Positions 1,325 through 64,000 of a DNA stretch of 64,000 bases are shown piece by piece. This stretch comes from Azolla caroliniana (taxonomy: Eukaryota > Plantae > Polypodiophyta). A program made the translations under genes and the position numbers. Positions within the stretch are counted from its first letter, which is position 1. Each line of letters starts with the position of its first letter. The stretch is from positions 23,312,001 to 23,376,000 of the forward strand of contig JBHGNT010000005.1 of assembly GCA_043228905.1 (NCBI GenBank), read 5' to 3'. Under the pieces are notes generated by a model. The model had not been told where the DNA came from and made no database searches. It worked only from the letters and a program-made list of their open reading frames with translations.

Positions 1325-2654
1325 AATGGTCATCTACAACAAGCTAAGGAGGAAAAGCTTTGCAAGGTTTGACAACAATAAGAAAATTATTAGGTACTAG
1401 AGATAAAAATAGTAGTGAGAGATTATTGAACAAATGAGAAAAGGGCAAGACTTTAGCTAAGATGGGTGCCTAGTCATACAACGACATCCACCATGTCTTC
1501 AATGTGGTGCCTAACTTTATAAAGATACAATTCTTTCTTTGCCTTGTCTATAGTAAGCATACCCAATACTAGTCCATGCATTAGAGGAAGATGGATAACC
1601 AATAGCTAATAACCTAATATAACTAGCTATTACTAATCCATCATTCATGACATGTAGTTATCATGTAGGTATTAGTCATGACTTAAATGATTGGTTGTTA
1701 GACTTGTAGCTAGTCAACTAGCCGATTATTCTTTGTTATTTAATAAGCTAAGATCATTTGCTACTATTCATCGTTTGGATGTGAGAGTTATTGTGAAATA
1801 GCTAAATTAACAATTTACTATCACACTTCAAGTTATCACTTAATTAATAGTCAAACATACTTAGCTAATTAAGTATCCACTAAATTAGTTACTTGACTTG
1901 TAGCAACTTATCTAACATCACTTGTTAGTACATAGCAATAAGCTATATTAACACTTATACTTATCAATAGGTATTATTGGTTGTCAAATTGTTGGAGTTA
2001 TAGTTAAATAACTATATCAAAAAGTTAAAGATCACTATATATCAAACTTCAAGTTGTCACTAAGAATAAGTGATTGCACAACTACTTAGTTAAAAAATAT
2101 TTGTAACTATTTGCTATCATCTTGATATTTGACATTACATTGATAATTAGGTATTACTTATCATAAAGCTATTAAGCTAATCTAATAATTGCTAGTGGTT
2201 TATCATTATTATCCATTTTTGTTTCAATGTAGGTGATTTATTTATTAGGTTTACGAGAATGTATCCCAAAGTGAAGTTCAATTACGAACATTTGAATATC
2301 TCAAACCATGTTTTATGAAATGTTGTCATGATGTGGCATTTATAGTGGAAGGAAAAGTGTCGAACCCTAATTTCATGAATGGTTAAAGGTTAGGTCAAAC
2401 ACATGAATAGAAGGATATGAGATAGGATGACACCTAAAACAAAAAGATATAACTGAAATTGCAAGAGCTAACTCTTGAAATCATAAGGTGTAAACGTTTG
2501 AATCTTCTAAAGGATGATGATCGTGAAATTGTGATTTAAAATGTACACCATGTAAGATTGAGGAATGTGGTAGAATGAAAGGGAAGAATTCACTTTTGCA
2601 AAAGTTGAGTCTCATGGATCAATGGTGACTTGTGCATCAAGTCTCATGGATCAA

Positions 2655-5600
2655 GAAGTGGTGCGTGCTTGAGTCCATACAACGGCTTTTTGAGTCGGCA
2701 AACTGCTTTCCGGTGTTTGCTCGATTCGAACCCGAGTGGTTGAATCATGAAGACCTCTCCTTCTAATTCGCCTTGCAGGAAGGCGTTCTTCACATCTATT
2801 TGGTGGAGGTGTCACCCTTTTGCAATTGCGAGAGTAATGATTGTCCGAACAGTCGTCATCTTTGCCACTAGGGCAAAGGTGTCCTCGTAATCAATGCTGT
2901 GTGTTTGAGCATATCCCTTGGCTACGAGTCCTGCTTTGTAGTGATTTATCGAACCATTGACATTGTATTTTACCATATATATCCACCTGCATTCGATCGC
3001 TTTCTTGTGTGGTGAACGGGGGACGAGATCCCATGTCTCGTTTTTGCATAGAGCCCGCATTTCTTCGTTCATGGCTTCGATCCATCGTCGATCCTTGGTT
3101 GCCTCAAAAAAGGTTTCCGATTCTCGGATAGTCACCACCTTCATCACAAAGGCATAATGATATGCCATATACTCATCGTAGCCGAATTGGCTAACTAGGT
3201 TTTTCTCTCGGGTGGAGCGAGGGAGCTTCTTGTGTGCAGAGACTAAGGTTTTCTTCGCTCCATTTGTCCAGATGATTGGGATGTCCATGCCTTCAAACTC
3301 ATTATCAAGGGAGTGAGTTGACTCGTTGTTGATTGGATCTTCGTATTCCGGCATTTTGGCCTTTCCTTCATCTAACCTCGGACTCGGTCGAGATGTGCTT
3401 TGGTCACTCGGGGGCTTTTGTGGTCCGCTCAGTCATGTTGTAATCAGACTTGCGTCATACATTTATCTGAGTCAATCTTCGTTCCCTAGCTCTTGGTCGG
3501 CCGAATTTGGGCGGATTGTTGTTGGAATCGGAGTCGTCTCTAGTTAGTACCACGATGCCAACTTGTCGAAAACAACATCTCGACTCACCCTAACTTTTCG
3601 GGTAGATGGGTCGTAACATTTGTACCCCTTTTCTTCGAGTGAGTATCCTATGAGGATACATTTCTCTGACTTCGGGTCGAGCTTGTGTCGCTTCTCGTTG
3701 GGAATGTGTACATATGCGATCGAGCTGAATATCCGGATATGTGATAGATCCGACTTCTTTCCGAAAAACTTCTCATGAGGTATTATGTCGTGTACCCCAA
3801 AGGTTATACATCTATTCATGAGATAGACGGATGTGTTAGCCGTTTTTGCCCATTATGATTTCGGCAAGTTCTTCTCGTTCATCATGGCCCTTGCCACCTC
3901 TACTATATGCCGATTCTTCTGTTTGGCTATTCTGTTTTACTGAGGTCTATGTTGGCATGAGAATTCTCATCGAATTCCTTCCTTTCGGAGATATGCTATA
4001 AAATCTTCTGAGAAATACTCCTTGCCTCCATCCGATCGGAGGCATCGAACATGCCGACTTGTGGCTTTTTTGACTTCGTTTTTAAACCTTTGGAAGTGTC
4101 TGAACACTTCACTCTTCTATCGCATAGGATAGATCAGGTATGCCTCGAGAAGTCATCGATGACCATGACATAATATCGGCAACCACCGAATGTTGCCGTC
4201 TGGGCTGCCCCCACACATATGAATGTACTACATCTAGGATCCCTTTGCTCACGTTCCTCTCTTTCGGGAATGGTTGCCGGTGTTGTTTGCCGAGTTGATA
4301 GGCTTCACATACACCGACAATCTCCTTTTCGGTAAATGTCGGGAGTCCGATTACGACTCCTTTTGACTGCATTCCTTTAAGCTTTAGGAAATTGATGTGG
4401 CCAATTCGCTTGTACCACAGGTTTAAGTTGGTTTCAACTTTGTGGCCTTTTGCGAACATGGTCGACTTCATCTCGTTCGATTCGAGGATGAACATCTGGC
4501 CTTCTCTTTGACCGTGAGCTATGAGTTTATCGTCTTTTTCAATGAAGCACCCGTCATTGTTGAATCGTACTTGATACCTTGTTCAACAATCTAGTCGACT
4601 GAGACCGGGTTTTTCGTGATGGTTGGAACATGCAAGACATTCTTGAGGTAGGTTTGTTTGCCATCAATCCCGAATGGGACATTTTTTATATGCCGAATCG
4701 AGTGAGTTGTGTCGTCTTCGATTTCAACATAGCCAGGTTGATCAGGCTTTCTCAACTCTTGGAACCAACCTTCATGAGATGTCATATGATTGGATGCTCC
4801 TGAATCGACAAACCATACATTATTTGAGGAGGAGGTGCTTGTCGGACCTTGTGACGACATCGAATGAGCTTTGTGCCTCATTACGAAAATTCCGCCATGA
4901 TCATCATAATCGGAATTCGTGGCATAATTTGTGAGTTGTCGGCTGGTAGAAGCCGACTCTTGCTTCTTCTTTCCACACTCTTCATAGTGGTCAAGCTTTC
5001 CACAGTATTCATATTCGATTTGGTTGTTGCGATGGCTTGGTTCGGCAGGATGGCTCCCCCTTCTGCCGTACTCCCTAGGATTGTTCCTATCGTCTTGCCA
5101 TTGGTGGGAGTTGCGTTCTCGGGTCGGCTGACCCTATCGCCCTCGGTCGAATCGACCTCTATTTCCTCCGCCCAGTCCTCTTCCATCATCCTTTTGGCAG
5201 TAGAGTATTTGACCATTTGGTGTGTTGCTCCTTTTTCAGACATGATTTTCTTCCACTAGTAATGTCTACTGAAGGTCGAAAAAGGAGGGAGGGTTCTCCC
5301 TTGCAAGAATGGCCGATTTGATCTTTTGCTGAATCGCGGTGCTAAACCGCCGAGGACCTCGAGCTCGTCTTAGTCTGACCGACTGATACACACTCTCAAG
5401 ACTCTCAGATTACCACTCTATATTATTGAGTATAACTCTGATTTCATCATATAAATATGTTAGACCTAATTGTATTTATGCTTATACACAGTATAGGCTA
5501 TTTACAAATATGGCCACTATGCGACCATGTCACAATCGGTTTCTAGATGCCTTTCGACTGATATGGAACCCTATCCAGATCCGGTTTCCAGATGTCTTCC

Positions 5601-5669
5601 GAATGATCTGACTCCTTGTCGAGATCTAGCTTGTTGCATGTTCCATTCAGAGGAACCTGTTCTCCAACA
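2655..5669 (-). mobile_element. Truncated, degenerate Ty1/copia LTR retrotransposon, related to the 52991-59642 element
   Basis: Minus-strand pieces: protease WFVDSGASNHMT (4591-4881), GAG-pre-integrase LWYKRIGHINF (4109-4495), integrase C-terminus KLDPKSEKCILIGY (3544-3819), RT N-terminus AMNEEM...[11 protein letters not shown] (2812-3354). Broken in RT near 2655; most of gag is deleted at about 5356. Confidence 0.92.
5357..5669 (-). repeat. Partial 5' LTR of the copia fragment
   Basis: Begins TGTTGGAGAACAGG on the minus strand at 5669 and resembles the ends of other copia LTRs here (GAGG.ACCTGT..TCCCAACA). It is joined directly to gag sequence. Confidence 0.6.
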
Positions 5670-5699
5670 ATTCTAAGATAGTCCTCCCACTTATCCAAT

Positions 5700-6186
5700 T
5701 TACATAGAAAATTGGTTTTGAATTTCTTTGGAAAATAGACGCCAACAAGGCATTTATTTATCTAAAATGTGCATTTACATCAACAATTTTATTACCGCAC
5801 ATGCTAATCCAGAGAAACCATTTATTATTGAAGCTGGTGCATCTGATTTTGCACTTGGGAGCATTCTTTCACAACCAAGAGAAGATGGTGAGCTTCATTT
5901 GATAGCTTTCCATTCATGGAAATTTACAGTTGTTGAGATTAATTATGATATCCATGATAAAGGACTTTTGGCTATTGCCGACTCTTTTGAGCAATGATGA
6001 CAATTTTTGGAAGGGACTCCTCATCAAGGTATCGTGTGTAATGATCATAAGAATCTCACATATTTCCAAACAGCTCAAGTACTTAATAGGCGACAAGCTT
6101 GTTGGGTGCAGTTTCTAATCTGATTTGATTTCAAAATTATATATCAGCGTGAATCTTTATAGGGAAATGTAGATGCTTTGTCACAA
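5700..6186 (+). pseudogene. Tcn1-like Ty3/gypsy pol fragment (RT connection/RNase H)
   Basis: PEKPFIIEAGASDFALGSILSQ...NYDIHDKGLLAI...DALSQ, homologous to 12450-13037. Confidence 0.85.
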
Positions 6187-9100
6187 CGTTCGCATTCACA
6201 AGTGGAAGGATTGCGCATTCCATTTATAGATTCCTTTTATAATCTTGCGATTTTAGACAATTTTCAAAAACTTGATACACCAGTATCACATGTTTTAAAT
6301 AGCATGTAAAATTTGCTAATTTTTTGAGATTTAACAAGTTTCAAAATGATAATTTCTAAAATTGAATAGTTTTTCAGTAAATGTTTAAATGTTGATGGTT
6401 TGCAGATATGAAATGTAGTTAACTTAATGAAAATCACAATGGTTAACTCAAGGCACAAGTTAAGATTAATGGTTTCACCATCTTGATGAGATTAAGATTA
6501 CATCTTTTGTTAGAATTGAAAATGTTTTAAGTATAAGAGGTAACATTGCAATCCTTAATATCATCATATATAAATTTAGTGCTCATTAACATCCATAAAT
6601 TCACAACTCAAGAAATGTAGACATTATTCATAAACAATTTTGATAAATCCACAACTCCAAAAATGTAGATGATATTCATAAACTGTTAAAACTGTCAAAC
6701 TTTAGATGTGAACATTAATATATCAATTTGAACATATCATATAGTTATCAGGGTATCTACAATGTTATCCTCTTCTTCCTTTTGAGAATTCCCCTACAAA
6801 ATTTGTGAAGTAAATGGCATTTGCGAAGTTCAATTACCATCAATACAATTATTAATGGTTTTTTGCTAATCAATGAAGCACATGTTCACCATAAGGTATC
6901 TTGTTGCGCAACATACATCTTTGCAGTATCGATATGCATCTTTTTCTCTTGTAAAAACATAGATTTCAGTATAATTTGAGTTCATGTTTAAAAAACCTCT
7001 TTTATTTGAAAAACAAGAAGTTTTTTAAACATGCACTCAGTATGTTGTATCGAGTTGATGTAAAAAACAGAGTTTTGATCATAATTCCATACAATGTATT
7101 GAATTCATGTTAAAAGGTTTTTTTACTGAATTTAAAAAAATTTAATAATAATACGTTGAGCTTGAGTTCATATAAAAACCAGATTTTTCATCACAATTTA
7201 ATATAATGTATCAAGTTCATGTTTAATATATATTTTTCTAATTTTTTTCTAATTTTTTTCTAATTTTTTTGATTTTTTTCAAATTTATTTATGGAAAAAA
7301 TAATTTAAAACATGAATTCGATACATTTTATCGACTTGTGATGAAAACTCTGTTTTTTTCATCATTTATTAAAGCTCAAAAAAAATTTCAAATTTTTTTT
7401 CAAAAAACCAAAATAAATAGAAAAAAAGCATTAAAAAAAAAAACCCAAATAAAGCTTTAAACATGAACTCGATACAATGTATCGAGTTCATGTAGAAAAG
7501 TTGACTTTTTGACACAAAATCGATGCAATGTATCGAGTTCGTATTGAAAACGTTTCAACACAAACTTGATACATTGTATTGAGTTTATGTTGAAAACTCT
7601 ATTTTTCAACACGAACTCGATACATTGTATCGAGTTCATGTTAAAAAGTCGACTTTTCTACATGTATCGAGTTCGTGTTGAAAAGCTAACTTGTTTAAAG
7701 CTTTTTTTTGGGGTTTTTTAAAAAAATTGCTTTTTTTTCTATTTATTTTGGTTTGTTGTTTTTTTTGAATTTTTTTTTTGAGCTTTAATAAATGATGAAA
7801 AAACCAGAGTTTTTATCAAAAGTCAATTCAATGTATCGAATTCATGTTAAAATTTTTTTTTTCCATAAATAAAATTGAAAAAAGAAAATCAAAAAAGTTG
7901 AAAAAAAATTAGAAAAATATACTTTAAACATGAACTCGATACATTGTATCAATTTATGATGAAAAATCTGGTTTTTATATGAACTCGAGCTCAACTTATT
8001 ATTATTAATTTTTTTTAAATCCAGTAAAAAAAACTTTAAACATGAATTCAATATATTTTATGGAATTATGATCAAAACTCTGTTTTTTACATCAACTTGA
8101 TACAACATATCGAATTCATGTTTAAAAATCTTCTTGTTTTTTAAATAAAAAGAGGGTTTTTAAACATGAACTTGAATCGTACTAAAATATTTGTTTTTAG
8201 AAGAGAAAAAGATGCATATCGATAGTGCAAAGAAGTGTGTTGCATAACAAAATACCTTATGGTGAACATGTACACCATTGATTAACACAAAACCATTAAT
8301 AATTGTGTTGATGGTAATTGAACCTTGCAAATGTCATTTACATGGTCTATAAAGTATTCTCGTGGTTCGCAATGACCATTTCAAGCACTTAATGTTGATC
8401 TTCATAGTTTGGTTCATCTACAACAGAGAAGCATTTATGTGGAACAAAGGATGACAACACGAGCATAACTCAGATGACAAGGAAACTTACAAGAACTCAA
8501 GGTGGGGATATTAATAACTACACATGTAGATGGCCATGAGCTAGGGTACCAATTCTGCATTGGTAAAGTTTTGGACGTGATGATGCATTAAACCTTTGTA
8601 ATACATCTATCATTGACATTAGTTAGGTGGATATCATTGTGTATGACTTTACACTGACTAAAGTTGGATGTTTAAGGACAACAACGATATACATAACAAA
8701 AGAGATATTACCAAGTCTAGAAGATATCTTAGATTGAAGGTGAAGATTTACTACACACAATTTGGAGACACCATTTGGTGAAGACAATGATTTGATTGGT
8801 ACATTTGAAAATGAGGAGGAAGAGTCACAATTGTATATTATCTATAGTAGTGATTCTCATGAAAAGAATGATGATATTTATGCAAATAACTCCCAAATGT
8901 ATTTGTTGTGCAACTATGCGTAACAAATTTAGACAACATTTTATTGAATGAAATAAAAATGTTCATTGTTTTGAAATCCTCAGCTTTTCATTTCTTTAAT
9001 ATCTAAAAACTTATTAGTTGTCATTTTTCTTTAAAAATACACAAACTTACTTTTCGTATTTGATCAAAGTTTGGCATTTTTCAATTTTACCAAATGGTGA

Positions 9101-9980: not shown

Positions 9981-10630
9981 TGTCGTAGTGTATTTCGTAC
10001 ACTACGTGAAAATAATATAAAATAACCGATTGAATAAATATGAAGAAAAAAGAAGAAAATATCAAAATAAGCATTACATGCCTAGGGCAAGATTCAAACC
10101 TTGCACCTCCATGTTAATAATGTAATGTCTTACCATTGCACTAGCATTTCATTAGTTTAAAAAGTAGATGTTCCATATAGAAATGTTAGTTCACCTAGGA
10201 TAAACTTTAGTTAAAAGAAAACGCATGCTAAAAGAAAAAGCTACGCATGCACATCTAGCGTGCATGAACGCTATAGTTGATAAAAAACGCACAAGTTAGA
10301 AAAAACATGATTTACTTTAGATAAAGCATATAGTCTATCTATAGGAAAATCATGGAGTCTATAGTTAGAAAAAAAAGCATGGAGTCTATAGTTAGAGAAA
10401 AAGCATGGAGTCTATAGTTCGAGAAAAAGCATGGATTGTAAAGTCTCTCTCATCACTATATAAGGATGAGGAGCACAATGTAATAGAGGGGGTGAAATAT
10501 TTGGGAAATTGGATATATTTCCTAAAACACCAATTAATAAACTATACTCATGGGATTCACGAGATTTCTATATCTTTCTCTATCAATCTAAATACATATT
10601 CTTACGTAAATATTAATCAATAAAATACAT
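9981..10630 (+). repeat. LTR fragment of the Phygy-like gypsy lineage
   Basis: Starts TGTCGTAGTGTATTTCGTACACTACGTGAAAAT, similar to the 5' end of the LTR at 19989 (minus). Contains ~26-bp tandem repeats CATGGAGTCTATAGTTAGAGAAAAAG (10351-10434). Right end lost. Confidence 0.55.
10085..10150 (-). promoter_or_regulatory. tRNA-like Pol III A/B-box module inside an LTR
   Basis: A box TAGTGCAATGG (10143-10133) and B box GGTTTGAATC (10100-10091) at tRNA spacing; GCAAG/CTTGC T-arm-like stem. Confidence 0.55.
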
Positions 10631-10721
10631 TCTAGAATATGTTCAAGAGAAATCTGGAATATACATTAATTTTCTATATTAAAACTTAAATGAAAATAAT
10701 TTCTTTTGTATTATAATATAT

Positions 10722-10798
10722 AGTCATATAGACTAATGGTCAAGAGCTCGACCCATGTAACATAAGGTCATGGGTTCGAGTCTTACCATATTATGACA
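10722..10798 (+). promoter_or_regulatory. tRNA-like Pol III A/B-box module at the very start of the Tcn1-like LTR, antisense to the element
   Basis: A box TAGACTAATGG 10729-10739 and B box GGTTCGAGTC 10773-10782. A truncated copy (TAGTCTAATGG) is present in the other LTR at about 31842-31884. Confidence 0.65.
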
Positions 10799-18816: not shown

Positions 18817-18974
18817 CGTATACTCGAAGTGCCCATATCTGGCGCGAAACGCGGTCTTCCATTCATCTCCTGGTCGGATCTGTACGAGGTTATATGCTCC
18901 TCGTAAGTCGATCTTTGTGAAGAACCTTGCACCATTGATCCGTTCTAAAAGACTTGAGATAAGGGGAAGTGCGT
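18817..18974 (-). pseudogene. Host Tcn1-like RT segment lying between two insertions
   Basis: [51 protein letters not shown]. Confidence 0.9.
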
Positions 18975-19437
18975 TGTCGTGAAGATCCGACACTACGCGC
19001 GGATCGTGAGGCGGAACCGCCGGGGTTCTGGACCGAAAGGATTCAAAGTCGGTACAAGCTTTGGCGCAAGCTTTAGCGAGAAAGTACTTAAGATAGATTG
19101 GGAAAGAGAGAAGTTGAGATTAAACGATTGAGAGAGATTGATTGAACTTTTATGTTTGGATTTTAGAAACAAGTTACACGATCAATTTGATAACGAATTT
19201 CTTCTTCTTAATTTCATAACAAAAAAAAAACGCGTTTTTTCTCCTCCCCCTCCCTTCTTTTATAGATGCTCTCATGCATATGATGCATGTGAGGGTAGAA
19301 GACATGCATAAAATGCATGTTTGCCATTTGGCGCTTATGTATTACATGTGGTGCATGATAACCATGTCACTCATTTTAGCTCTCATGTATGAGAATTTAC
19401 ATGTAAAAGTACAATGATAGAAATATAAATTCAATTA

Positions 19438-19508
19438 AATGGCATGGCTTAATGGTAAGCCAATTGACTCCTAACTTGAAGGTGCAAGGTTCGAATCTTT
19501 ACTTGCCC
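19438..19508 (+). promoter_or_regulatory. tRNA-like Pol III module inside the LTR, antisense to the element
   Basis: A box TGGCTTAATGG 19445-19455 with GCTT/AAGC D-stem, loop CTCCTAA, B box GGTTCGAATC 19488-19497. Confidence 0.7.
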
Positions 19509-22500
19509 TTCTTGTATATGTATATATGTATATATATTTATTCGGATGTTGTCGGTTACCGGTGCCTCGCCTGGTGCCGGATCACCGGCTCCATCGCCGG
19601 TCCAGTTTTGGTTGGCCAAAACCCTTTACGAGTAGCTAGCCCACCTCCACTCTTAGTTCAAGTTACCTTGAACTCTCTATGCTCCACACATAGACACAAA
19701 GATAATATCTTTTGCTCTACCTTATATATGATGAGAGCCGTATTTGTCGTGCCTATGTGGAATATCTCACAATTTTCTCTTTCCCTTGCACAAACTTTAT
19801 ACCCTCATATCTTGACATTTAGTTGTCCGTTTCTCGTGTAATAAAGTGCATTCGAAACCTCCATCATTTTGTACTTAGATATTAAATTTATTTAAAATGT
19901 TATCTTCACAATTATTGTATTATGTGATTCATACTCAATTTTGTACGTTTTATGAGATTTTCACACTATTGCCGAAAATCTTTACGACATCCACCCCCAC
20001 CAAACCGCACGTCCTCCGGTACGTGCCAAGAAGAGAGAAAGTGAGATTTCGGCTACGGTGATCAATTAGATTCCTCCATGTCTTTAGTTACATCCGCCCT
20101 ATTATGTTCATCGTCGAGGTAATCAAGGTTAGGATCCTTGTCTTGTCTTTTTTTGAAAATCTTTACTCTTTTTCCCGCAATGGGTACAACCAACCTTGAT
20201 CCGTCTAGTTCCCAAGGTGGTATGTGGCATTATCGTTGGCACTTGTCACCACATATGGCCCGAGCCATCTTCTTGGGAACTTCCTTGTTGTACTGTGTTT
20301 ATTGTCAAGGGTGCTGCCGTAAACCAAAACCCAATCCCCTTCTTCAATCTTCTTGGGACGAAGTCGATGCGTGTTGTCGAACCGAACTTTGTTCTTTACT
20401 CGGGCTGCCTCCATCATCTTTCACGCTTTTTCTAAATCTTCAGGTCTTCTTTCAAGTTGCCTTATCCGCGCCGCTAATAATTCTTCTCGGCTCATCTCGT
20501 TCTCCCACGGTATCGCTACCCATGAGGCGATCGTCGGCATATACATAAGCTCCGTCGGCATATACCCTGTCACCGAGCTATGTGTCGTTCTATCGGCCCA
20601 CAAGGCATAGGGTAATAGTCGTGGCCAATTCCCGACTCGACCGTTGCATGCCCGTACGATGGCTTTAACGATAGGTCCATGCCCTTGCTCGATCTTCCCA
20701 TTCGCTTCTGGATTGTAGGCAGTCGTGAGGGAGAGCTTCACGCCTAGTCTTTCGAAGAGCTCCGTCGCTTCGTGCGCGTCCAACTCCCCTCGGTCGGCCA
20801 CTATCTTCCCTACACATCCATATTGGCAAACAACCTCTTCAAGCAAAAATTTGCAAACGGCTGAAGTCGTCTTATTTGTCAAGGCTCGTCCTTCCACTTG
20901 ATTTGTCAAGTCTTCCCTTGCCAGCGCTAAGTACTTCATTTGTGCCACTCCCATTGGCATTGAGACCAGATCCACCATCCATTTGAAGTGTATGGTGAGT
21001 GGGTATGTCGGCTGTAACTCATCACGATGATGTATATTTGAATATATTTGGCAAGTTTCGCATGTGGACACGAAATGGATTACATCTTTGTACATGCCGT
21101 TCCACCAGTACTTCTCCTTCAACTTTTTGAACGTTGCCCATGTTCCTCTATGACCTGCCCAAGCACTCTCGTGGAATTCGGTCATCAGCGTCTCTTGCTC
21201 TTCTTTCTTTACCACCACTCGACGTGGTATTCCTGTCCTTCTTTTTGGATGTCGCCAAAGGAATCCTCCCTTCAAGAAGTATCGGTAAGCTTTCTTTCGG
21301 ATTCGTAGGGCCTCCTCCTTTGTCAATGAAGCATCTGTCGTCAATGTTCTTAGGAATCTACCGATGAGTAACCACTCTCCTTCGTACTCGTTCTCGTTGA
21401 AGGCGTGGAGGGTTTGCCGACAATCGAGCCATCTTGAAGAAGTCGAGGGCGACATCTTCATCTTCCGAAACCATGTTACTTCCATTTGAAAATCTTGCCC
21501 TCGACAACATGTCAGCCATGGCGTTCTTCTTCCCTGCAATGTGACGGATCTCTGGGTTTAAAGACTTGATGTAGGCGATCCATCTTAGCATAGCAAGATC
21601 TGGGGTTGCACATCCCGAGACCATTCTGAGAATTGGGAGACAATCTGTCTCTATTATCACTTTTGACCCGATCAGGTAATCTTTGTCCGTCTTCACTACC
21701 GACACAATACCCCAAAGTTCCCGCTTGACTTGGGCATATCTTTGTTGCCGTTCGCTGAGAACCTTTGCTCTGAACCGGACGGCATATCGCGCATTATCTT
21801 CACCTTCTTGATTGATGACCCACCCGATTCCGGTTGGGCTCGTATCTACAGTCACGTAAATTGGTTTCCCTTCGGCATAGTCGGCCTTCCTTAGTGCCGG
21901 AGCTTCAAGAAGTAGTTTCTTTAATCTTCGCATCGCATTTGTGTGCTCGTCTCACCATTCGAACTTCATTCTTTTCTTTAGTAGTCCATATAATGGTTCG
22001 GCGACATGAGCGTAGTGAGGAATCTATATATGATAAAACGCGCACGCTCCAAGGAACCTTCGAACCTCCGTTTGGTTTTCGCATTCTTCTTTCATGTCTT
22101 GGATTGCGTTCACTTTGGATGGCGAGGGCTTCCGGTCATATGCTCCACACAAGTGACCTACCACCAAGATCTCCGGTTGCCTGAATGCGGATTTTTCTCC
22201 CGAAAATGTCAAATTCGCATCTTCGAGCCTTTGAAGCACCTTCTCGCAATCTTTCATATGATCCGCAACGAACTTTCTACAACCTTCCTTATCTTTCGAT
22301 TCATCTTTCTCCTCATCCGAACATCCTTTTATTGGAATATCATCCAAGAATGGCATCGTGATGTCCGGGATGCAATCCTTCAAGACTTTATTCATGGCGT
22401 TCACCATATGAGCCACCGAGTTTGTTGCGCCTTGGGGTAAGGTACACATCTGCACAAGCCCGATCAGAGTCCTCATGGTTGTAATGTCCCGACTGTCGAT

Positions 22501-23684
22501 CGCCAATTGGAATTGGTCATATCTGGAGTAGAGATCGCCAATGGAGTAGATGGACCGGCCCGCAAATGCTTCGGCAAATTCGTCCACGCTCGGACCGATT
22601 CCGGCATTTCGAATTGTCACCTTGTTGACGGGTTGAAGATCTTGGATGAATCGCAATGATCCATTCTTCTTCGGCACCGTGAACCACCTATTGGAATAAG
22701 GAGCATTCGACGGTTCTAGAATTCCCATACTCACCTTCTCCTTTAAGAGCTCGATCAGCTTCGGAAGGTGTGCTCTTGGAACCGGTATCAGTTTCAAATT
22801 CCAACGCACATGAGGCACCGTGAAGATCACCATTGGCTCTATAACCTTTGGGTCGGCGCATCCGATTTCTCATGGGAAGAATGCGAAAGCCTTCCCATGT
22901 CTCTCAAGCATATCGCGAAAAATTCGCTCCTCTTCAGGGAGAAGGAAATCCTCCTTTCCAACTCGTAGCTTCCCCTTCGTCTCTTTGGTGAAGACATGAC
23001 CTATCTTCTTCGGATCTCTTAAGCTTGGATCGTTAGCTACTTCCTTCATCTTTTGCCAGCTATCAATTGATGGAAATAATCGACACTTTCCAAACTTCAC
23101 CTCTCGGCCACAACCAAGGAAACACACGAATCGTTGTTGCAGAAAATGGGAAATGCAAAAGTAAGTAAGTGGACACGTGATTTAACGTGGAAAACCCTGT
23201 ACGGGAAAAACCACGGGAGTACAAGACTCCGAACCAAAACTATGCACAGAGAAATATACAATGGCGAGCTGCAAGGCGACGACCTTGAGCTCGCTGTCCT
23301 CGCCACAGGCGGCGGGATTACACAGAGGCGTCGACCTCTTCCTCTCTCACGCTCTATCTCTCTCACGGCTGCTCTCTCTTCACTCCTCTTGAGTGGAAAA
23401 ACAGAAAAATGAGTAGCAACTGAAAACTGTTTGCCCTAAGTCATATTTATACACATATGACTTAGGGCTATTTACAACTATAGCCTCAAGGGCCCTTGGC
23501 AAACATATTCACAGATATGTCCCCGCATCCGGGTCTCTCTCCGGGTACATTCGTCATCTGGCTCCGAAGCCGGGGTCTTCATCATCCGGCTCCGCAGCCG
23601 GGACCGTAACCGTAACCGTAATTGCCGTCATTCATCTCCGGACATCCCATCCGGAGGGACCGAAAATCCCAACAAACTCCCCCT

Positions 23685-24332
23685 TCACTTCGGCATGGGA
23701 TGTCTCTCCAATCCGATCCTCTTCCGGCATGCTTCCAGCTTGTCGGGTGTAAGTACCTTGGTCAGCATATCCGACCCGTTCTCGTCCGTGTGGATCTTCG
23801 TCAGCACGAACTCCTTGTCTTCTATACTTTCCCGGATCCAGTGGTATCTACGCTGGATGTGCTTCGTCCGGGAGTGATAGGCCGCATTCTTCGCAAGGTG
23901 GATGGCACTCTGACTGTCGCAGTAGAGTCGGTACTCCTCCTGCCGGATACCGAGCTCTCTAATGAAGTCCTTCATCCATATTATTTCCTTGCCGGCTTCA
24001 ACGGCTGCCATGTACTCCGCCTCCTTGGTTGACAACGCAACCGTCTTCTGCAGCCTCGACTGCCACGAAACAGCTCCCCCTGCATACGTCATCACATACC
24101 CTGATGTGGACCGGCTGGTATCTGCATCGGCCGACATATCCGAATCGGTAAAGCCGTCGAGTTCGGGCTTACCGGAGCCGAATCGGAGGCATACGTTTGC
24201 CGTGCCCTTCAGGTATCGGAGTATCCACTTGGCCGCGTTCCAGTGCTCTTTGCCGGGATTGCTCATGTACCGGCTCACCACTCCGACTGCATATCCTATG
24301 TCCGGTCTTGTACACACCATTGCGTACATCAA
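23685..24332 (-). pseudogene. copia RT C-terminus/RNase H, out of frame after the deletion
   Basis: MYAMVCTRPDI...FTDSD...VSWQSRLQ...TKHIQRRYHWIRE. Confidence 0.9.
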
Positions 24333-24334
24333 GC

Positions 24335-27300
24335 TTCCGGTCCCGGATGATGTGCATCCCTAGTATTTGCCTCGCCGGACCCAGGTCCTTCATTGAGAAG
24401 GTTCGGTGAAGAGCCTTCTTCAGCATCCGTATCTTGACCTGGTCTCGTCCGACGATCAACATGTCGTCCACGTACAGGAGGAGTATTAGAAAGTCTCCTC
24501 CTTCGAACTTCTTCACAAACACGCAGTGATCGGACTGCGTTTTGTGGTAGCCTTCGTCGGTCATGAAAGAGTCGAACTTCCGGTACCACTGCCGGGGAGC
24601 CTGCTTCAGTCCGTAAAGGCTCTTCTTCAACCGGCATACCAGGTGCTCCTTTCCTTTCTTCTCGAATCCTTCCGGTTGCTGCATGTAGATCTCTTCTTCG
24701 AGGTCACCGTGAAGGAATGCCGTCTTCACGTCCATCTGTTCTACCTCGAGGTCCATGCTTGCCGCTATGCTCAGCACCGTCCGGATGGAGGTCATCTTCA
24801 CTACCGGGGCAAATATCTCGTCGAAGTCGACGCCCTTCTTCTGCTGAAACCCCTTCACCACGATCCTGGCTTTGTATCTCGGGGGGTTTCCGGCATCTCC
24901 CGGTTTCAGCTTGAACACCCACTTGTTTCGAAGTGCCCGCTTTCCTTTCGGCAACTCCACAAGTTTATATGTGTGGTTCTCATGCAGGGAATCCATCTCC
25001 TCCTGCATGGCACTTAACCACCTGCGGCTATGAGTGTCAAGCTTTGCTTCTTCAAAACTCTCCGGCTCCCCCTCGTCGGTTAGCAGCACGTGCTCTGGTT
25101 CCGGAAATCTCCGGGGGGCCCTTCTCTCTCTTAGAGGATATCTCCGTTCCGGAACTTCGGTAACCGGCTCCTCCGTTTCCTCTTCATCCGAATCCATTTC
25201 GGGATCGGGGCCGGTTCCGGTATCAATTTCATCTTCCTCGGCTGGTTCTGTTTCTTCACCGTCTTCGGCCGGATCCTCGAGTGCTAACCGGTCCCTTGCC
25301 GGTCGGGACTGCTCTTCGTAGAGTTTATCCTCACCGGTCGACTTGGAGCTCTTCATCTTCTTCTCCGACTCCCAGTCGGCGAGTGTCTTGTCCTCCATGA
25401 AGATGATATCTCGACTCCTGAATATCTTCTTGTCGACCGGGTCCCATACTCGGTAGCCGAACTCGTCGTCGCCGTAACCGAGGAATATGCATGGCCGGGT
25501 CTTTGGTTCTAGCTTTCCTCTCCGGTCCTTTGCCACATGCACATATGCGAGACACCCGAACACCTTCAGATGCCGGTAGGATACTTCCCTACCGGTCCAC
25601 ACTCTCTGCGGCGTGTCTCCGTCCAAAGGTACTGAGGGTGATCTGTTTATCACGTATGTCGCCGTCGACATTGCCTCAGCCCAAAACCCCTTGGGTAATT
25701 TCGCATGCGCCAGCATACTCCGGACCCTCTCCATTATGGTCCGGTTCATCCTCTCGGCCAGCTTGTTCAGTTCCGGCGTCTTCGGCACAGTAAACTCGAG
25801 CCGGATTCTCTTCGAGCGACAGTACTCCGCGAACTGCCCCCGGTATTCCCCTCTGTTATCCGCTCGTATCGCTTTCAGCTTCTTGCCGGATTCCCTTTCC
25901 ACTCTCGCGTGGAGTTCTTTGAAGACGCACAACACTTGGTCCTTTGTCTTCAACGGTGCCGTCCACAGCTTCCGGCTGTGATCATCAATGAATGTTACGA
26001 AGTACTGGGCTCCGCCATGTGACTTCGTTTCTACCTGACACACATCAGTGTGCACCAACTCCAATGGTGCGCTACGTCTCGTCGGTGGCCTTGAGTGGAA
26101 GGAGGTTCGGTTCTGCTTACCGGCCAGGCAATCAGTGCACTTCTCCAGGTGCACACGCTTCACAGGAATAAGGTTGTCTTCTGCAAGCCTCTTCATCCCC
26201 TTCTCACTCATGTGGCACAGTCTCTTGTGCCACAGCTCACCGGCAGTGTCGGCTGCCACGTTCAACTCTTCCGGACACAACCAGGCATTCATAAGGTACA
26301 GTGTGTTGACTTTCCGGGCCCGAGCCACTATCAGGCTCCCCTTGCTGAACTTCATTACGCCGTTCCGGATGCTACCTGTGTAGCCTTCATCGTCTAGCCT
26401 CCCGGCCGAAATCAGGTTCAATCGAACCTCCGGAACGTGTCGGACATCCTTCAGCAGCATTTTGCATCCGATCGAGGTTGTCAACCACACGTCTCCTATG
26501 CTGGCAATCCGGCACGTACCTTCGTTTCCCATCCGAACACAGCCATGCTCACCGACTGTGTAGGATGAGAAGTATCTTCTCTCCGGGGTCAGGTGGAACG
26601 ATGCTCCGGAATCGACCACCCAGGTCGTCTCATCGCCGGCAATGTTTAGTTCACCTTCTTCGGTGATGAGCATGATTTCTTCCTCACTTGCCGCGAGTGC
26701 CGTCATTCCTTTCCGGTCCTGCCCTCGCCGATCCGGACCTCTCCGGCCCGTGGCTCCTCGGTATGCACGGTTTCTCTCCGGTGACTTCTTCGAATCGGTG
26801 TCGTCGGCTCCGTTGTCCTTTCGGTAATGCCGACAATTCTTCCGGAAGTGCCCCGGCTTCCCACAGTGGAAGCATGTGGGTCTTCCTCTTGACTGCGACC
26901 GGGTCCCCGACTTCTCCCGTCTTTGCGGACTCCGGTTCCATTGTCTTCCCCGTTCCGATTCGGTAAGCAGCGCCTTCGAGTCGGAGGCCGGTTCTTTATC
27001 TCTCCGACGCGCTTCTTCGTTCAAAATACTTGTCTTTACCGTTTGTAGGGACAAGTTATCTTCCGTGCAGGAGGTGCTGAGAGTCACCACCAAGTTCTCC
27101 CAGCTTTCCGGCAATGTACACATCAGAATGATGGCTTGCATTGCATCCTCCAGCGGGAACTTGATCGCCGCAAGCTGGTTCACGAATCCCATGAACGTGC
27201 TTACGTGTTCCACCATACTCTCGTCGTCCCGGTACTTGAGGTTCACTATCTTCCTCATCAGGGAGGTCCGGTTCAACGCATTCTTCCTCTCGTAGAGGCC

Positions 27301-27570
27301 CGACAGCTTCCGCCACATCTCATATGCGTTGATGTCGTTCGCCACATGTTGTAGAACGCTCACGTCGACGTATTGCCGAATGGTTGCAACGGCTTTCCGG
27401 TTCAGAAGCCTCCATTCTGACTCAAGTACCCCCTTCGGTATTTCCGACCTATCAATCGGTTCGTACAGGTCCCGAACAATCAGAAGATCCTCCATCTTGA
27501 TCTTCCAGTCGGCGTAATTCTGCGCATTCAGCACCATCATCCCCGGCTGCCCGCTGCCGCCGCCTTCCAT
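24335..27570 (-). CDS. copia Gag-PR-IN-RT polyprotein, open from ATG 27570 to an internal RT deletion at about 24335
   Basis: Part of the 1152-aa ORF: zinc knuckle CFHCGKPGHFRKNC, WVVDSGAS, HHCC and DDE integrase, LYVDDML. Frameshifted after GMHIIRDR. Confidence 0.9.
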
Positions 27571-28599
27571 TTTCTGCAGCAGCCTCGCTCTGATACCAAA
27601 TTGATGGAAATAATCGACACTTTCCAAACTTCACCTCTCGGCCACAACCAAGGAAACACACGAATCGTTGTTGCAGAAAATGGGAAATGCAAAAGTAAGT
27701 AAGTGGACACGTGATTTAACGTGGAAAACCCTGTACGGGAAAAACCACGGGAGTACAAGACTCCGAACCAAAACTATGCACAGAGAAATATACAATGGCG
27801 AGCTGCAAGGCGACGACCTTGAGCTCGCTGTCCTCGCCACAGGCGGCGGGATTACACAGAGGCGTCGACCTCTTCCTCTCTCACGCTCTATCTCTCTCAC
27901 GGCTGCTCTCTCTTCACTCCTCTTGAGTGGAAAAACAGAAAAATGAGTAGCAACTGAAAACTGTTTGCCCTAAGTCATATTTATACACATATGACTTAGG
28001 GCTATTTACAACTATAGCCTCAAGGGCCCTTGGCAAACATATTCACAGATATGTCCCCGCATCCGGGTCTCTCTCCGGGTACATTCGTCATCTGGCTCCG
28101 AAGCCGGGGTCTTCATCATCCGGCTCCGCAGCCGGGACCGTAACCGTAACCGTAATTGCCGTCATTCATCTCCGGACATCCCATCCGGAGGGACCGAAAA
28201 TCCCAACACTATCTTCCGGTAGCGTAACCACAACTGGCTTGATCTTCTTATCCACCATTTTATATTTCGTGTTGATGTCAGCTTCCTTCATCGAGATGCC
28301 ACGACGGTATTCATCGATGATAGCGTACATGTTGACGGAGTTAACCGAAATCACGCGTTGGTTGTGAAGATAGCTCAAGTCCACGACGTCCTCGATTTCA
28401 CCGATGGTGTCGTTAAATGAGGCTTCTTCCATAATATGAGTCACGAACTCTCCTTCTTCTATTATGTTTTCTTCTTTTAGCATCTTCTCGAATTCTTGTA
28501 TCCGGTGCTTGTGCTTCTTGTCGGGTAGTACTAGTTTACATGCGCCACTAGGTGTGACACATGTTGCTTCTACTCGCAATCCACGCACTCTTCTTTCTT

Positions 28600-28663: not shown

Positions 28664-29283
28664 AAGGATTCGCCTCCGAGACTATCTCGATTCCTTTCAT
28701 GATTGGCTCACACCATTAGGAATTGGACCGATCTTTGGTTGTCAAGACTCTTTATTCGTGCGAAGGCTGCTCCATTATCGAACACTTTGGTCTCCATCCG
28801 AGATGATGTGATATAAGGTTGCCCTAGGATGACAGGATGCGACGCCGATTCTTTTACGAAGAAGTGTTGTTCCATCTCCACATCCCCGATCGTGACTTCG
28901 ATATTGGGACAAGCTCCGTACAAGTCCTCCGTAGACTTTGTTGCCGCGCGAATCTTCCATCCGTGGTTTGTATTGATTGGCCATCTTCCTTTTTTGTAGA
29001 AGTCGGTTGACATGAGGTTGATCTCCGAGCCGTGGTCGATCAAGGCTACCACAGTCTCTTTCTTCTCCCCAATCTTCCCTTTCACAAACTTTATACCCTC
29101 ATATCTTGACATTTAGTTGTCTATTTCTCGTGTAATAAAGTGCATTCGAAACCTCCATCATTTTGTACTTAGATATTAAATTTATTTAAAATGTTATCTT
29201 CACAATTATTGTATTATGTGATTCATACTCGATTTTGTACATTTTATGAGATTTTCACACTATTGCCGAAAATCTTCACGACA

Positions 29284-30160
29284 GCGTACCTATTCCTGAT
29301 GGTGACCTTATTCAAGCCACGGTAATCTATGACGAGACGAAGTGATCCATCCTTTTTCTTGACGAAGAAAATGGGTGCGCCGACTGGAGATTTCGAATGT
29401 TGAATGAAACCATTTGCCAAATTCTCCTCTATATAGGCTCGAATGACTTCTAGTTCGATTGGTGACAAATTGTAGATCGGTCCCAATGCTAGCTCTTTTC
29501 CCGGTTGTAAATCGATGGGGCAATCATACGGTCGATGGTGAGGAAGCGTATTGAATTGTACTTTATCGAACACATCGGCATAATGACAATACTTCTCTAG
29601 AAGTTGAACGGTGGACTCCTCTTTAGTGGTGTTGGAGGGTTTTACTGATACTGCAAGAGAAACATTTCTTCCTTGCGTCCTTGCTCATGCTACTGATGTA
29701 GCGAAATGGTTGCAATCTTATGAGTAGATCCTCGGGTTTGTCAATACCAGATTTCTCTTGTTCTCCAATCTATGTCTAGGTTATGTAATTCGAACCATGG
29801 TAATCCCAAAACAATGGGATGTTCTGGGATACTAATTATATTAAAGGATACTACACACGCTAAATTATCTAGGACAATATTAACAGGCTCTGAGACTTCT
29901 ATGATATTTCCGGAAGCAATGGGACGACCATCAATGACTACTACAGAGGCTGGACATGGGAGTTTTCTTAGGGATATCTGATGAGCTTGGGCAAAATTCC
30001 TATCCATGAAGCAAGAATTAGCTCCAGAATCTAGGAGTGTTGAGATATGTACTGGAGAGATACTTTTAGTACTAATTGTTACTTGGGCTAAAAACACATT
30101 GCTAACTTTCTTAGAGGGAATGGAACCACTAATAGGTTGCACAGATCTAGGGTTGTCCAA
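29284..30160 (-). pseudogene. Host Tcn1-like protease and RT N-terminus
   Basis: LLDSGANSCF...LGLPWF; [13 protein letters not shown]...[25 protein letters not shown]. Confidence 0.92.
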
Positions 30161-31614: not shown

Positions 31615-31884
31615 TGATAACAAAAGATATATATTATGTTAAGAGAATATACAATAGTAGTTAGGAGGCTTAAGATTGGTGTTGAACCGATTTGGTTCGA
31701 AATAATGCCTTGTGCCTCCTTTTATAGTGTTCTCAGGAGTACTCTTGAAGTTTCTAGAATGTTCAAGAGAAATCTGGAATATACACCAATTTTCTATAGT
31801 AAAACTTAAATGAAAATAATATCATTTGTATTATAACACATAGTTATATAGTCTAATGGTCAAGAGCTCGACCCATGTAACATA
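31409..31884 (-). repeat. 5' LTR of the Tcn1-like element (outer ~35 bp missing) with (CT)n tract
   Basis: Ends ...CGTGACA on the minus strand; TATAAAA at 31726-31720; matches the 10631-10798 remnant. Confidence 0.85.
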
Positions 31885-55074: not shown

Positions 55075-55900
55075 TGACAGGAACTCAACGCTCCTTATGT
55101 CCAACACTCGGCCACAACCGAGCGTCTTTTCATACACAGAAAAACGGGAAACAAATGCACGACACAAAGGAGAGAAATTACACAGGAGGTTTACGTGGAA
55201 AACCCCAAACTAGGGGAAAAACCACGGCACCCCACAGGCTGCAAACTGTCACTATGTAGTAATGTACAAAACAGTGAGTTCACGGAGGCAACGACCTCGT
55301 GCTCACGATCTTCGCCACAGGCGACGGTTACAACAGAGGCAGCAACCTCTTTCTCTCTCTCTCTCTCTGTACACTGTTACGTGCTTACTCTTCTTCTTGC
55401 ACCAACAAGAAAAATAATGACAACTAACTCTCTAAAAGTTTGCCCTAAGTCATATTTATACTAATATGACTTTTCAGCTATTTACAAATATAGCCTCGAT
55501 GAACTCTCAGAAAACATATTACGAATATGTCTCTTCATCCGGTTCATACCGGGTCTGCACCATCCGGCTCTCCGTAGCCAGGTACTCCTTATCCGGTCTT
55601 CACCGGGTCTGTATCATCCGGCTCTCCGTAGCCGGGTACTCCTCATCCGGTCTTCACCGGGTCTACACCATCTGGCTCTCCGTAGCCGGGTACTCCTCAT
55701 CCGGTCTTCACCAGGTCTGCACCATCCGGCTCTCCGTAGCCGGGTTCTCCTCATCCGGTCTTCACCGGGTCTGCACCATCCGGCTCTCCGTAGCCGGGTT
55801 CTCCTCATACCGTTTCGGCCTCATCCTATCGGCCTCGGCCGAGTTTGTTCATCGGCACTGTTCTTCTCCCTTCCCATCCGGAGGGACCTGTCTCCCAACA
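55075..55900 (-). mobile_element. Solo LTR of the Tnt1/Tork-like copia group
   Basis: TG...CA ends; TSD CCGAT (55070-55074 and 55901-55905); homologous to 61309-62019 and 23068-23674. Confidence 0.93.
55549..55808. repeat. 54-bp CCGG-rich tandem repeat, about 5 copies, in U3
   Basis: Unit CCGGGTCTGCACCATCCGGCTCTCCGTAGCCGGGTACTCCTCATCCGGTCTTCA; about 3 copies at 61790-61945. Confidence 0.92.
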
Positions 55901-60358: not shown

Positions 60359-60425
60359 CGTGTTACTACGCTTTCGTGGATCAAAAGAGACGGGACCGCG
60401 GGGGCCCTGAACCAAGGAGCGTGAC

Positions 60426-60504
<79 letters not shown>

Positions 60505-60772
60505 TTTGCTGAACACTATGAACGAGAGAGAGAGAGAGAGAACAAAACAGTTTGATTATAACACTAATAACGATTACAACCGGCACACTGGCAACAGACC
60601 CAACACGGGAGCCCACACACACACACACAGATGTCACACGCCAAGCACAGAAACGCGAAGGGAGAGCCTCTGATGGAAGCGCACGGGTTGTCCACGAAGC
60701 AGAGGCGTATTACTATGCTTTCGTGGATCAAAAGAGACGGGACTGCGGGGGCCCTGAACCAAGGAGCGTGAT

Positions 60773-60835
<63 letters not shown>

Positions 60836-63957: not shown

Positions 63958-64000
63958 TGTCGTGCCTTTCGGCTCCGGATCGTTGCGTGAGTCGGGTGGG
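63958..64000. repeat. Probable terminus of another gypsy LTR at the window edge
   Basis: TGTCGTG start, with an abrupt switch from gag to GC-rich sequence. Confidence 0.45.

What the first reader, a model, noticed from the sequence alone, without database searches (positions are those of the whole stretch)
19438..19508. tRNA-like Pol III cassette inside a gypsy LTR, resembling the lineage's own primer tRNA-Trp
Seen: TGGCTTAATGGTAAGCCAATTGACTCCTAACTTGAAGGTGCAAGGTTCGAATC has A and B boxes at tRNA spacing (T8 to T54 = 45 nt) and a paired D-stem, antisense to the element. It shares TGGC..AATGGTA, TGACTCC, GAAGGT and GTTCGA.TC with plant tRNA-Trp as I recall it, and sister elements have a tRNA-Trp PBS. 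Acceptor and anticodon stems are poor, so it is not a functional tRNA. Established analogy: Cassandra TRIMs carry 5S Pol III promoters in their LTRs, and TFIIIC-bound boxes act as chromatin barriers. Inference: a captured tRNA retained as an insulator against silencing or as an antisense promoter.
Basis: partly seen in the sequence, partly recalled or inferred. Interest (0 to 1): 0.72.

Follow-up and report, generated by a model that had tools for sequence, protein, structure and literature searches.

The report
Backward tRNA promoter in retrotransposon LTRs
The end repeats of several protein-coding jumping-gene families, likely from a moss, carry a worn, backward-facing tRNA-like stretch whose two promoter boxes stay conserved while the tRNA shape is lost, so the element likely keeps it as a landing site for the RNA polymerase III machinery near its own promoter; no binding or RNA data test this yet.

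Summary
A and B boxes sit 45 nt apart, antisense, inside a 1015-bp LTR of a Phygy-like gypsy element (4-bp NCGN target duplication). It is the best A+B match in 64 kb; the top three all lie in LTRs (shuffles: 0.15).

It is not a private SINE insertion. Hundreds of contigs from three organism labels carry it in this LTR. A sister gag-encoding family has the homologous module in 10 copies, in U3, and the two LTRs align almost only there. A chromovirus LTR has a separate tRNA-like module, also antisense.

Substitutions spare the box cores (0 of 5 versus 22 of 30 other positions) while the cloverleaf is lost. The tRNA-Trp identity is not supported: no in-register CCA anticodon, and the T-stem does not fit the primer.

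Best reading (0.45): a captured tRNA or SINE head kept as an outward-facing TFIIIC/Pol III element. Against it: C56 is T in 6 of 10 sister copies, four related LTRs lack the module, and there are no RNA data.

Closest known: Helenus, but that is non-coding and short. This scan earlier noted Helenus-type elements in other genomes; the notes returned showed none in coding elements.

The parts
19438..19510 (+). Module A: worn tRNA-like cassette, antisense to the element; not a foldable tRNA
19445..19455 (+). A box (T8-G19); listed variants only at degenerate positions 13 and 15
19488..19497 (+). B box (T54 = 19490), inside an 18-nt block 19480-19497 shared with family B
18975..19989 (-). 3' LTR (1015 bp, TGTCGT..ACGACA) of Phygy-like gypsy element A; high-copy family
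19990..20004 (-). Polypurine tract of element A, abutting the LTR; fixes the orientation
18971..18974 (.). Target-site duplication GCGT (partner 29284-29287), 4 bp, NCGN type; the target is the RT gene of another gypsy element
29075..29283 (-). Remnant of the 5' LTR (209 bp, 97% identical); the rest, the PBS and gag are deleted, so it cannot test the module
19256..19265 (-). TATA-like site 2, 291 bp from the LTR 3' end, about 190 bp on the far side of the A box; likely Pol II promoter by analogy with family B (inferred)
19720..19729 (-). TATA-like site 1, context like the family B TATA; if this is the promoter, the module lies in R/U5 rather than U3
19270..19420 (.). CATG-rich block between the module and TATA-like site 2; same order in family B
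20208..22869 (-). Broken pol of element A: RT, RNase H, integrase; no chromodomain found; RT 75% identical to a sister element
10091..10143 (-). Module B: homologue of module A, 45-nt spacing, C56 read as T, antisense in U3
9981..10629 (+). Truncated LTR of family B (TGTCGT start, flank TCGT); TATA-like site near 10459
10729..10782 (+). Module C: separate tRNA-like A+B pair, 46-nt spacing, antisense, B box ending about 16 nt from the LTR 5' tip; lies in a strong hairpin (z = -5.1)
10630..10798 (-). 5' part of the 3' LTR of a chromodomain-bearing, Tcn1-like gypsy element
31849..31883 (+). Second, truncated copy of module C (perfect A box, B box cut off) in the element's other LTR, 92% identical over 135 bp

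Best explanation
A tRNA-like stretch, likely a captured tRNA gene or SINE head, is a fixed, backward-facing part of the LTRs of two related protein-coding gypsy families, and it is likely kept because its A and B boxes would bind TFIIIC next to the element's own Pol II promoter. Shown: position, orientation, family-wide presence, loss of the cloverleaf, conservation of two blocks around the boxes at fixed spacing. Inferred: (1) one insertion into an ancestral LTR, copied to both LTRs at the next round of reverse transcription; (2) in young, unmethylated copies TFIIIC binds and would place TFIIIB on the TATA-facing side, keeping U3 nucleosome-poor and resisting the spread of silencing from flanking heterochromatin; (3) any Pol III transcript would run outward, away from the Pol II start, about 90 nt in family B, and cannot be the replicating RNA; (4) the site decays at its CpG once a copy is methylated.
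For: Family-wide in A: 315, 612 and 55 contigs from three organism labels lie on 19370-19507, two X3 contigs span it whole, and its depth bins fall within the range of the other LTR bins. No 7-12 nt direct repeat flanks it. Family B: 9 of 11 collection hits are copies of LTR 9981-10629, with the module at one fixed place about 105 bp from the 5' end; L010 shows a whole 723-bp LTR, a Trp-type PBS and a gag-like frame. LTR A and full B LTRs align only at the module (E 1e-7 to 6e-4) and at a 21-bp U5 motif. Variable positions over three comparisons: 1 of 9 at 14-23, 17 of 20 at 24-43, 1 of 18 at 44-61; 0 of 5 A-box core positions versus 22 of 30 others, p = 0.004, post hoc. In organism C the A box moves to a canonical form by changes at 13 and 15 only, and subfamilies with unlike upstream DNA converge at T8. 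C56 is kept on separate branches, with C and T interleaved on the tree, as repeated decay after insertion predicts. A T4 run 24 nt after the B box is invariant in 9 of 9 B rows. A third module with the same orientation sits in a chromovirus LTR whose element lacks a tRNA-type PBS. tRNA genes lie in nucleosome-poor DNA and have insulator activity (PMC11346459, passages).
Against: C56, a core B-box base, is T in 6 of 10 family B copies against 17 of 77 at other CpG sites (p = 0.019). G10 is A in L006. The whole A box is only modestly better kept than its flanks in B (0.81 versus 0.73-0.78; rank 122 of 405). In family A, 19370-19408 also shows no listed variant, so the module is not the only conserved block, and missing rows near the ends of the laid stretch prove little. 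The B-box block in the nine collection copies was fixed by my search pattern. Conservation extends past the boxes into a 13-pair hairpin that TFIIIC binding does not explain. Four related GC-rich LTR families in the window have no module. Module A has no T4 run until 19606. LTR A has two TATA-like sites, so U3 placement is inferred from family B. TFIIIC is excluded by CpG methylation (PMC11346459), which limits a barrier role to unmethylated copies.
Confidence: 0.45

Rival explanations
1. An old SINE or tRNA relic that is now kept for something other than Pol III, such as a Pol II factor site overlapping the boxes, or that merely decays slowly.
For: High C56-to-T rate; modest A-box rank within family B; absent from four related LTR families; other conserved blocks exist in the same LTRs; conserved CATG motifs flank the B block.
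Against: Two separate blocks survive at exactly 45 nt between LTRs that otherwise do not align; substitutions fall at degenerate A-box positions; a second lineage shows a similar cassette.
Confidence: 0.22
2. A Ty3-like second primer-binding site: because the module is antisense, the genomic RNA carries the complement of a tRNA's D and T arms near its 3' end and would anneal them to help start reverse transcription.
For: Orientation and U3 position fit in all three families. Ty3 uses a bipartite PBS with the T and D arms binding U3 (PMC5371799, passages); Drosophila gypsy has a 3' PBS (PMC1635307, abstract). Family B has a Trp-type PBS.
Against: The best-kept block fits the primer's T-stem 5' strand, as implied by the window's PBS, at 1 of 5 positions. 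The A15-to-G change, the majority form in organism C, keeps the box. Trp-primed sisters lack the module. Element C has no TGG-type PBS and instead an 11-nt match to its own LTR, as in self-priming (Tcn1 self-priming in PMC6317226). The primer's D arm could not be compared, and family A's own PBS was not seen.
Confidence: 0.15
3. An RNA structure signal in the 3' end of the genomic RNA: a hairpin with the palindrome TTCGAA in its loop would act in dimerisation, packaging or strand transfer.
For: A 13-pair hairpin is 96% paired in the alignment, against 22-56% when slid; both strands fold it, and module A folds a related stem; module C lies in a hairpin with z = -5.1.
Against: No pair changes on both sides, so pairing is not shown to be selected; nine of ten rows are one family selected by the pattern; it does not explain the A-box block or the fixed spacing; C56-to-T breaks the palindrome in 6 of 10 copies.
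Confidence: 0.13
4. A SINE inserted in this one LTR copy, or a chance resemblance.
For: The partner LTR does not cover the site; single contigs skip stretches that include the module (19407-19624 and 19450-19991); Rfam and ARAGORN see nothing.
Against: Hundreds of contigs carry it joined to LTR flank; no target duplication; the skips are not clean empty sites; the homologue is fixed in family B; 0 of 150 shuffles match the count.
Confidence: 0.03

Closest known systems
Helenus / TRIMp3 (Kojima 2024, PMC10886601; main text parts 1-4 of 6, passages, and a supplement search)
   Same: A tRNA-like sequence inside an LTR, with conservation around boxes A (TRGCY, YGG) and B (GGTTC) and no functional tRNA; proposed origin by SINE insertion into an LTR.
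   Different: Helenus elements are non-coding, 311-1263 bp, and are thought to be transcribed from the cassette. Here the LTRs are 723-1015 bp, the elements encode gag and pol, and the cassette faces away from the element. The only plant Helenus is from Selaginella; no moss appears in the supplement. The paper says that 'not a few LTRs' in Repbase resemble part of a tRNA but analysed only TRIMs under 1000 bp, so coding cases may have been seen and not described.
Cassandra TRIM (as described in PMC10886601)
   Same: Pol III promoter inside a plant LTR.
   Different: 5S-derived, non-coding, and drives the element's own RNA; here tRNA-type, antisense, in coding elements.
Phygy non-chromovirus lineage (Neumann 2019, PMC6317226; passages and one supplement row)
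   Same: 4-bp NCGN target duplication, Trp-type PBS, no chromodomain found, short non-coding regions.
   Different: No LTR cassette is mentioned in the passages read; lineage was not confirmed on a reference tree.
Ty3 bipartite PBS (PMC5371799, passages) and Drosophila gypsy 3' PBS (PMC1635307, abstract)
   Same: tRNA-complementary sequence in U3 of a Ty3/gypsy RNA.
   Different: Those are matches to the primer tRNA; here a whole-tRNA-length trace keeps promoter spacing and does not fit the primer's T stem.
tDNA insulators and extra-TFIIIC sites (PMC11346459, passages)
   Same: Box-bearing DNA acting on chromatin with or without a transcript.
   Different: Host chromosomal sites in yeast and mammals; binding is not shown here, and the passages read give no plant LTR case.

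Membership tests
Helenus (TRIMp3) | tRNA-like sequence with boxes A and B inside the LTR | tested here: met
Helenus (TRIMp3) | Short (up to about 1.3 kb), non-coding element | tested here: not met
   element A has RT, RNase H and integrase frames; family B has a gag-like frame after the PBS
Helenus (TRIMp3) | Cassette placed to transcribe the element's own RNA | tested here: not met
   antisense to PPT, PBS and pol in families A, B and C; sense orientation in Helenus is implied, not stated, in the passages read
Functional tRNA gene | Cloverleaf with acceptor, D, anticodon and T stems | tested here: not met
   31%, 70%, 60%, 62% of cells paired; 52.9% overall versus 55.2% when slid by one
Copy of the primer tRNA-Trp | CCA anticodon, and T arm and 3' end matching the PBS complement | tested here: not met
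   0 of 9 copies have CCA; 5 of 15 (A) and 6-7 of 15 (B) at positions 59-73; 1 of 5 in the implied T-stem strand
Copy of the primer tRNA-Trp | D arm and anticodon arm closer to tRNA-Trp than to other tRNAs | not testable with these tools
   no plant tRNA set could be fetched
SINE insertion (single copy) | Own target-site duplication and empty sites in sister LTRs | tested here: not met
Type 2 Pol III promoter | A and B box cores at tRNA spacing, kept across copies | tested here: met
   exceptions: C56 is T in 6 of 10 B copies, G10 is A in 1 of 8
Type 2 Pol III promoter | T4 or longer terminator downstream | tested here: inconclusive
   B: invariant T4 24 nt after the B box, in AT-rich DNA; A: first T4 at 19606; C: none inside the LTR
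Type 2 Pol III promoter | TFIIIC binding or a Pol III transcript | not testable with these tools
   no run on record as RNA; contigs give no strand or start
Phygy lineage (host elements A and B) | 4-bp NCGN target duplication | tested here: met
   A: GCGT; B flanks: NCGN in 5 of 9, CpG-decayed forms in 3, a PPT in 1; definition
Phygy lineage (host elements A and B) | tRNA-Trp PBS | tested here: inconclusive
   present in B (L010) and three sisters; deleted in A. Trp label rests on the lineage table and recall
Phygy lineage (host elements A and B) | RT groups with REXdb Phygy on a tree | not testable with these tools
   no reference set held; RT 75% identical to a sister element
Ty3-type bipartite PBS | U3 segments complementary to the primer's T and D arms | tested here: inconclusive
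   T-stem strand does not fit; D arm untested

The most novel reading that the evidence does not exclude
Protein-coding LTR retrotransposons of two distant gypsy lineages (Phygy-like and Tcn1-like) independently captured tRNA-type promoters, always facing outward in U3, and use host TFIIIC/Pol III as a portable anti-silencing barrier that lets them stay expressed inside the transposon islands they insert into.
Probability: 0.22. Interest if true: 0.78.

Novelty: new variant of a known kind. Interest (0 to 1): 0.5.

Why it matters
Pol III cassettes in LTRs are described only for short non-coding elements that use them as their own promoter, and Kojima argues that autonomous elements must rely on Pol II. 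A conserved cassette facing backwards in coding elements cannot do that job, so it points to another use. If it is a TFIIIC barrier, it would be a self-protection device of a plant retrotransposon and a direct handle on whether tRNA-type insulators work in plants, testable by gene editing and reporters in a moss. If it proves to be a tRNA-annealing or packaging signal, it extends Ty3-type RNA architecture to a plant lineage.

Tried and rejected
No genome is held for this window, so copy counts come from contigs and 11 fetched loci.

ARAGORN and Rfam found no tRNA at any of the settings tried. Relaxed ARAGORN gives 37-230 calls, which is noise.

blastn of the module against phages gave 12 records, best E 0.6; five rows lie on a tRNA-Trp at E 8 over 26 nt. 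I give this no weight.

Pattern scans with no hit: viral contigs and prokaryote genomes. Two of the 11 metagenome hits (L003, L011) share only the 20-27 nt around the pattern, have no A box, and were dropped. L007 was dropped from column statistics as a 99% twin of L008; L009 is cut before the A box.

Expression: no RNA holder listed. One 360-nt contig of a run only guessed to be RNA spans the module; this is no evidence either way.

An Arabidopsis tRNA paper's supplement held none of five motifs (PMC11658184, one file searched), so the source tRNA stays open. From recall alone the D arm and loop of module A look more like an arginine tRNA than Trp; this is untested.

My automatic search for a self-primer in element C found nothing at two mismatches because it began at the wrong offset; the 11-nt, one-mismatch match is read by eye from the strings printed.

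Literature searches that found no description of such a cassette in coding LTRs: (open-licence PMC and bioRxiv only; most hits seen as listings). Repbase reports and subscription papers were not searchable. Supplements of PMC7466625 and the per-element table of PMC6317226 were not read and may bear on family names.

Full report
OBSERVATION. The flagged sequence is at 19445-19497 on the + strand. With the textbook patterns TRGYNNARN(N)GG and GGTTCRANYC (recalled consensus) it is the only perfect pair in the window, with T8 to T54 = 45 nt. Three pairs have at most one mismatch in all: 19445+, 10143- and 10729+, spaced 45, 45 and 46 nt. Shuffles give 0.15 on average and never three in 150 trials. 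All three lie in LTRs, which cover about 15% of the window. None is a tRNA by ARAGORN or Rfam.

HOST ELEMENT. The module is in a 1015-bp LTR, 18975-19989, with inverted TGTCGT..ACGACA ends and a purine tract at 19990-20004, so the element reads on the - strand and the module is antisense. The other end is at 29283, with a 4-bp GCGT duplication; the target is the RT gene of another gypsy element. RT, RNase H and integrase frames are present but broken, a copia element interrupts them, and a deletion removed gag, the PBS and all but 209 bp of the 5' LTR. A 4-bp NCGN duplication and a tRNA-Trp PBS define Phygy in the lineage table of Neumann 2019 (186 elements, 100% and 81%). Three sister elements in the window have that PBS type, and the RT of element A is 75% identical to a sister's. 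Phygy was named from a moss and Tcn1 occurs in mosses and club mosses, so the host is likely a moss; this is inference.

FIXED IN THE FAMILY. In four DNA runs 1,365 to 7,887 contigs lie on 18900-20100. The two module bins (83,078 and 68,960 in X1) fall within the range of other LTR bins, leaving aside the dip at the TA repeat and the bin after it; depth is not a copy number. On 19370-19507, 315 (organism A), 612 (B) and 55 (C) contigs were laid, and two span the stretch whole. A few single contigs skip larger pieces that include the module, but none is a clean empty site, and no 7-12 nt direct repeat flanks it. A private SINE insertion is rejected.

A SISTER FAMILY. blastn of the LTR against the window gave a second copy at 10089-10137 (80% over 49 nt, E 2e-6), inside another LTR that starts at 9981. 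A collection scan with the shared 20-mer gave 11 loci, of which 9 are copies of that LTR, family B, and 2 are unrelated. In all nine the module sits at one fixed place, about 105 bp from the 5' end (L007 is cut before that end), antisense, and upstream of a CATG-rich block and a TATA-like site where those are covered. L010 holds a whole 723-bp LTR followed by a Trp-type PBS and a frame like the sister gag (27% identity, E 5e-11). LTR A aligns with three long B LTRs only at the module and, in one, at a 21-bp U5 motif. A profile of the module finds nothing in four GC-rich sister LTR families or three copia LTRs. LTR A has the same order, module then CATG block then TATA-like site 291 bp from the 3' end, but also a second TATA-like site upstream, so U3 placement is clear for B and inferred for A.

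CONSERVATION. At 4% or more in any run, one search lists 19 variable positions: 10 in the 36 nt before T8, 2 in the A box (positions 13 and 15, both degenerate), 7 between the boxes, and none from 19478 on. Subfamilies with unlike upstream DNA converge at T8. None is listed at 19370-19408 either, and the ends of a laid stretch are weakly tested. Pooling A versus B, variation within B (two or more rows): 1 of 9 positions vary at 14-23, 17 of 20 at 24-43, 1 of 18 at 44-61; 0 of 5 A-box core positions vary against 22 of 30 others (p = 0.004, post hoc). alone gives p = 0.10. Against this: the 11-nt A box in family B has mean identity 0.81 against 0.73-0.78 for flanks, rank 122 of 405; G10 is A in one copy; C56 is T in 6 of 10 copies against 17 of 77 at other CpGs (p = 0.019), though C and T interleave on the tree and two 99% identical copies differ there, which points to repeated decay after insertion. 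The B block in the nine fetched copies was fixed by the search pattern.

NOT A tRNA, NOT SHOWN TO BE Trp. In tRNA register the stems pair in 31% (acceptor), 70% (D), 60% (anticodon) and 62% (T) of cells, overall no better than when slid by one column. Two D-stem pairs show changes on both sides, but the control is weak (67 of 500 shuffles reach the count of pairs). In-register anticodons are CCT in A and ATT, ATA, GTT or GTA in B. The window's PBS gives the primer's last 18 bases: module A matches positions 59-73 at 5 of 15, and the T-stem strand that those bases imply matches at 1 of 5. The source tRNA is unresolved because no plant tRNA set could be fetched.

A THIRD MODULE. At 10729-10782 a different A+B pair lies at the 5' tip of the 3' LTR of a chromodomain-bearing element (Chromo E 2e-11), again antisense. 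A truncated second copy with a perfect A box is in that family's other LTR at 31849-31883. This element has no TGG-type PBS; the bases after its 5' LTR complement an 11-nt stretch 33-43 nt after its TATA with one mismatch (read), as in the self-priming Tcn1 group. The module lies in a strong hairpin (z = -5.1) and scores only E 1.6 against the A/B profile, so it is either an independent capture or a hairpin that mimics one. Only one whole copy was seen.

MECHANISM. An antisense cassette cannot make the element's RNA, which is the role proposed for Helenus and shown for Cassandra (PMC10886601). What survives is two blocks centred on the boxes at fixed spacing, with changes at degenerate positions. 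I therefore put 0.45 on a TFIIIC/Pol III DNA element facing outward near the Pol II promoter, keeping it open in young copies; tRNA genes are nucleosome-poor and can insulate, and methylation excludes TFIIIC (PMC11346459). Rivals are a relic kept for other reasons (0.22), a Ty3-like U3 annealing site for the primer (0.15), and a hairpin signal with a palindromic loop (0.13; 96% paired but with no two-sided change). No binding, methylation or RNA data were available.

COMPARISON AND VERDICT. It resembles Helenus in content but fails membership on size, coding capacity and orientation. Five searches of open papers found no description of such a cassette in coding LTRs, and Kojima's supplement lists no moss, but that paper notes tRNA-like pieces in many Repbase LTRs and studied only short ones. 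Earlier notes of this scan returned nothing by place or sequence and several Helenus-type short elements in other genomes by words. Verdict: a real, family-wide, selectively kept feature; new variant of a known kind; function inferred. Interest 0.5.

Noticed in passing
window 10709-10798 and 31849-31883: The first 90 bp of the chromovirus LTR form a long imperfect inverted repeat (z = -5.1 for 10722-10795), so both strands carry A-box-like sequence; module C would read out of the LTR into flanking DNA from a 5' LTR.
   Followed up: partly
window 19256-19265 and 19720-19729: LTR A has two TATA-like sites; loose ends at 19641 and 19787 show subfamilies with other sequence there, so this LTR may be a composite.
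   Followed up: partly
family B alignment, positions 11-12 and 56-57: The two CpGs inside the module are often TG on the module strand (5 of 9 and 6 of 10; CA once at 11-12, excluded by the pattern at 56-57), whereas the other CpGs give TG 12 and CA 11. Unexplained.
   Followed up: partly
window 6810-8341: A 1.5-kb AT-rich foldback with 84-87% complementary arms and a roughly 50-bp internal repeat, likely a non-autonomous DNA transposon.
   Followed up: no
window 23065-28208: Copia element with identical 610-bp LTRs and a 1153-residue open frame, a recent insertion inside element A.
   Followed up: no
window 55489-55876 and 61730-62009: Arrays of a 54-bp unit inside copia pol between integrase and RT.
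   Followed up: no
window 60359-61036: Tandem duplication of about 349 bp inside the U5 part of a GC-rich gypsy LTR (93% identical).
   Followed up: no
window 63955-64000: The 3' end of another family B LTR followed by a Trp-type PBS lies at the window's edge; the next window should hold another module.
   Followed up: no
L004:1395-1449, L010, L008, window 10536-10590: Family B LTRs carry two or three copies of a conserved GTGGGATTCACGAG-like motif after the TATA site.
   Followed up: no
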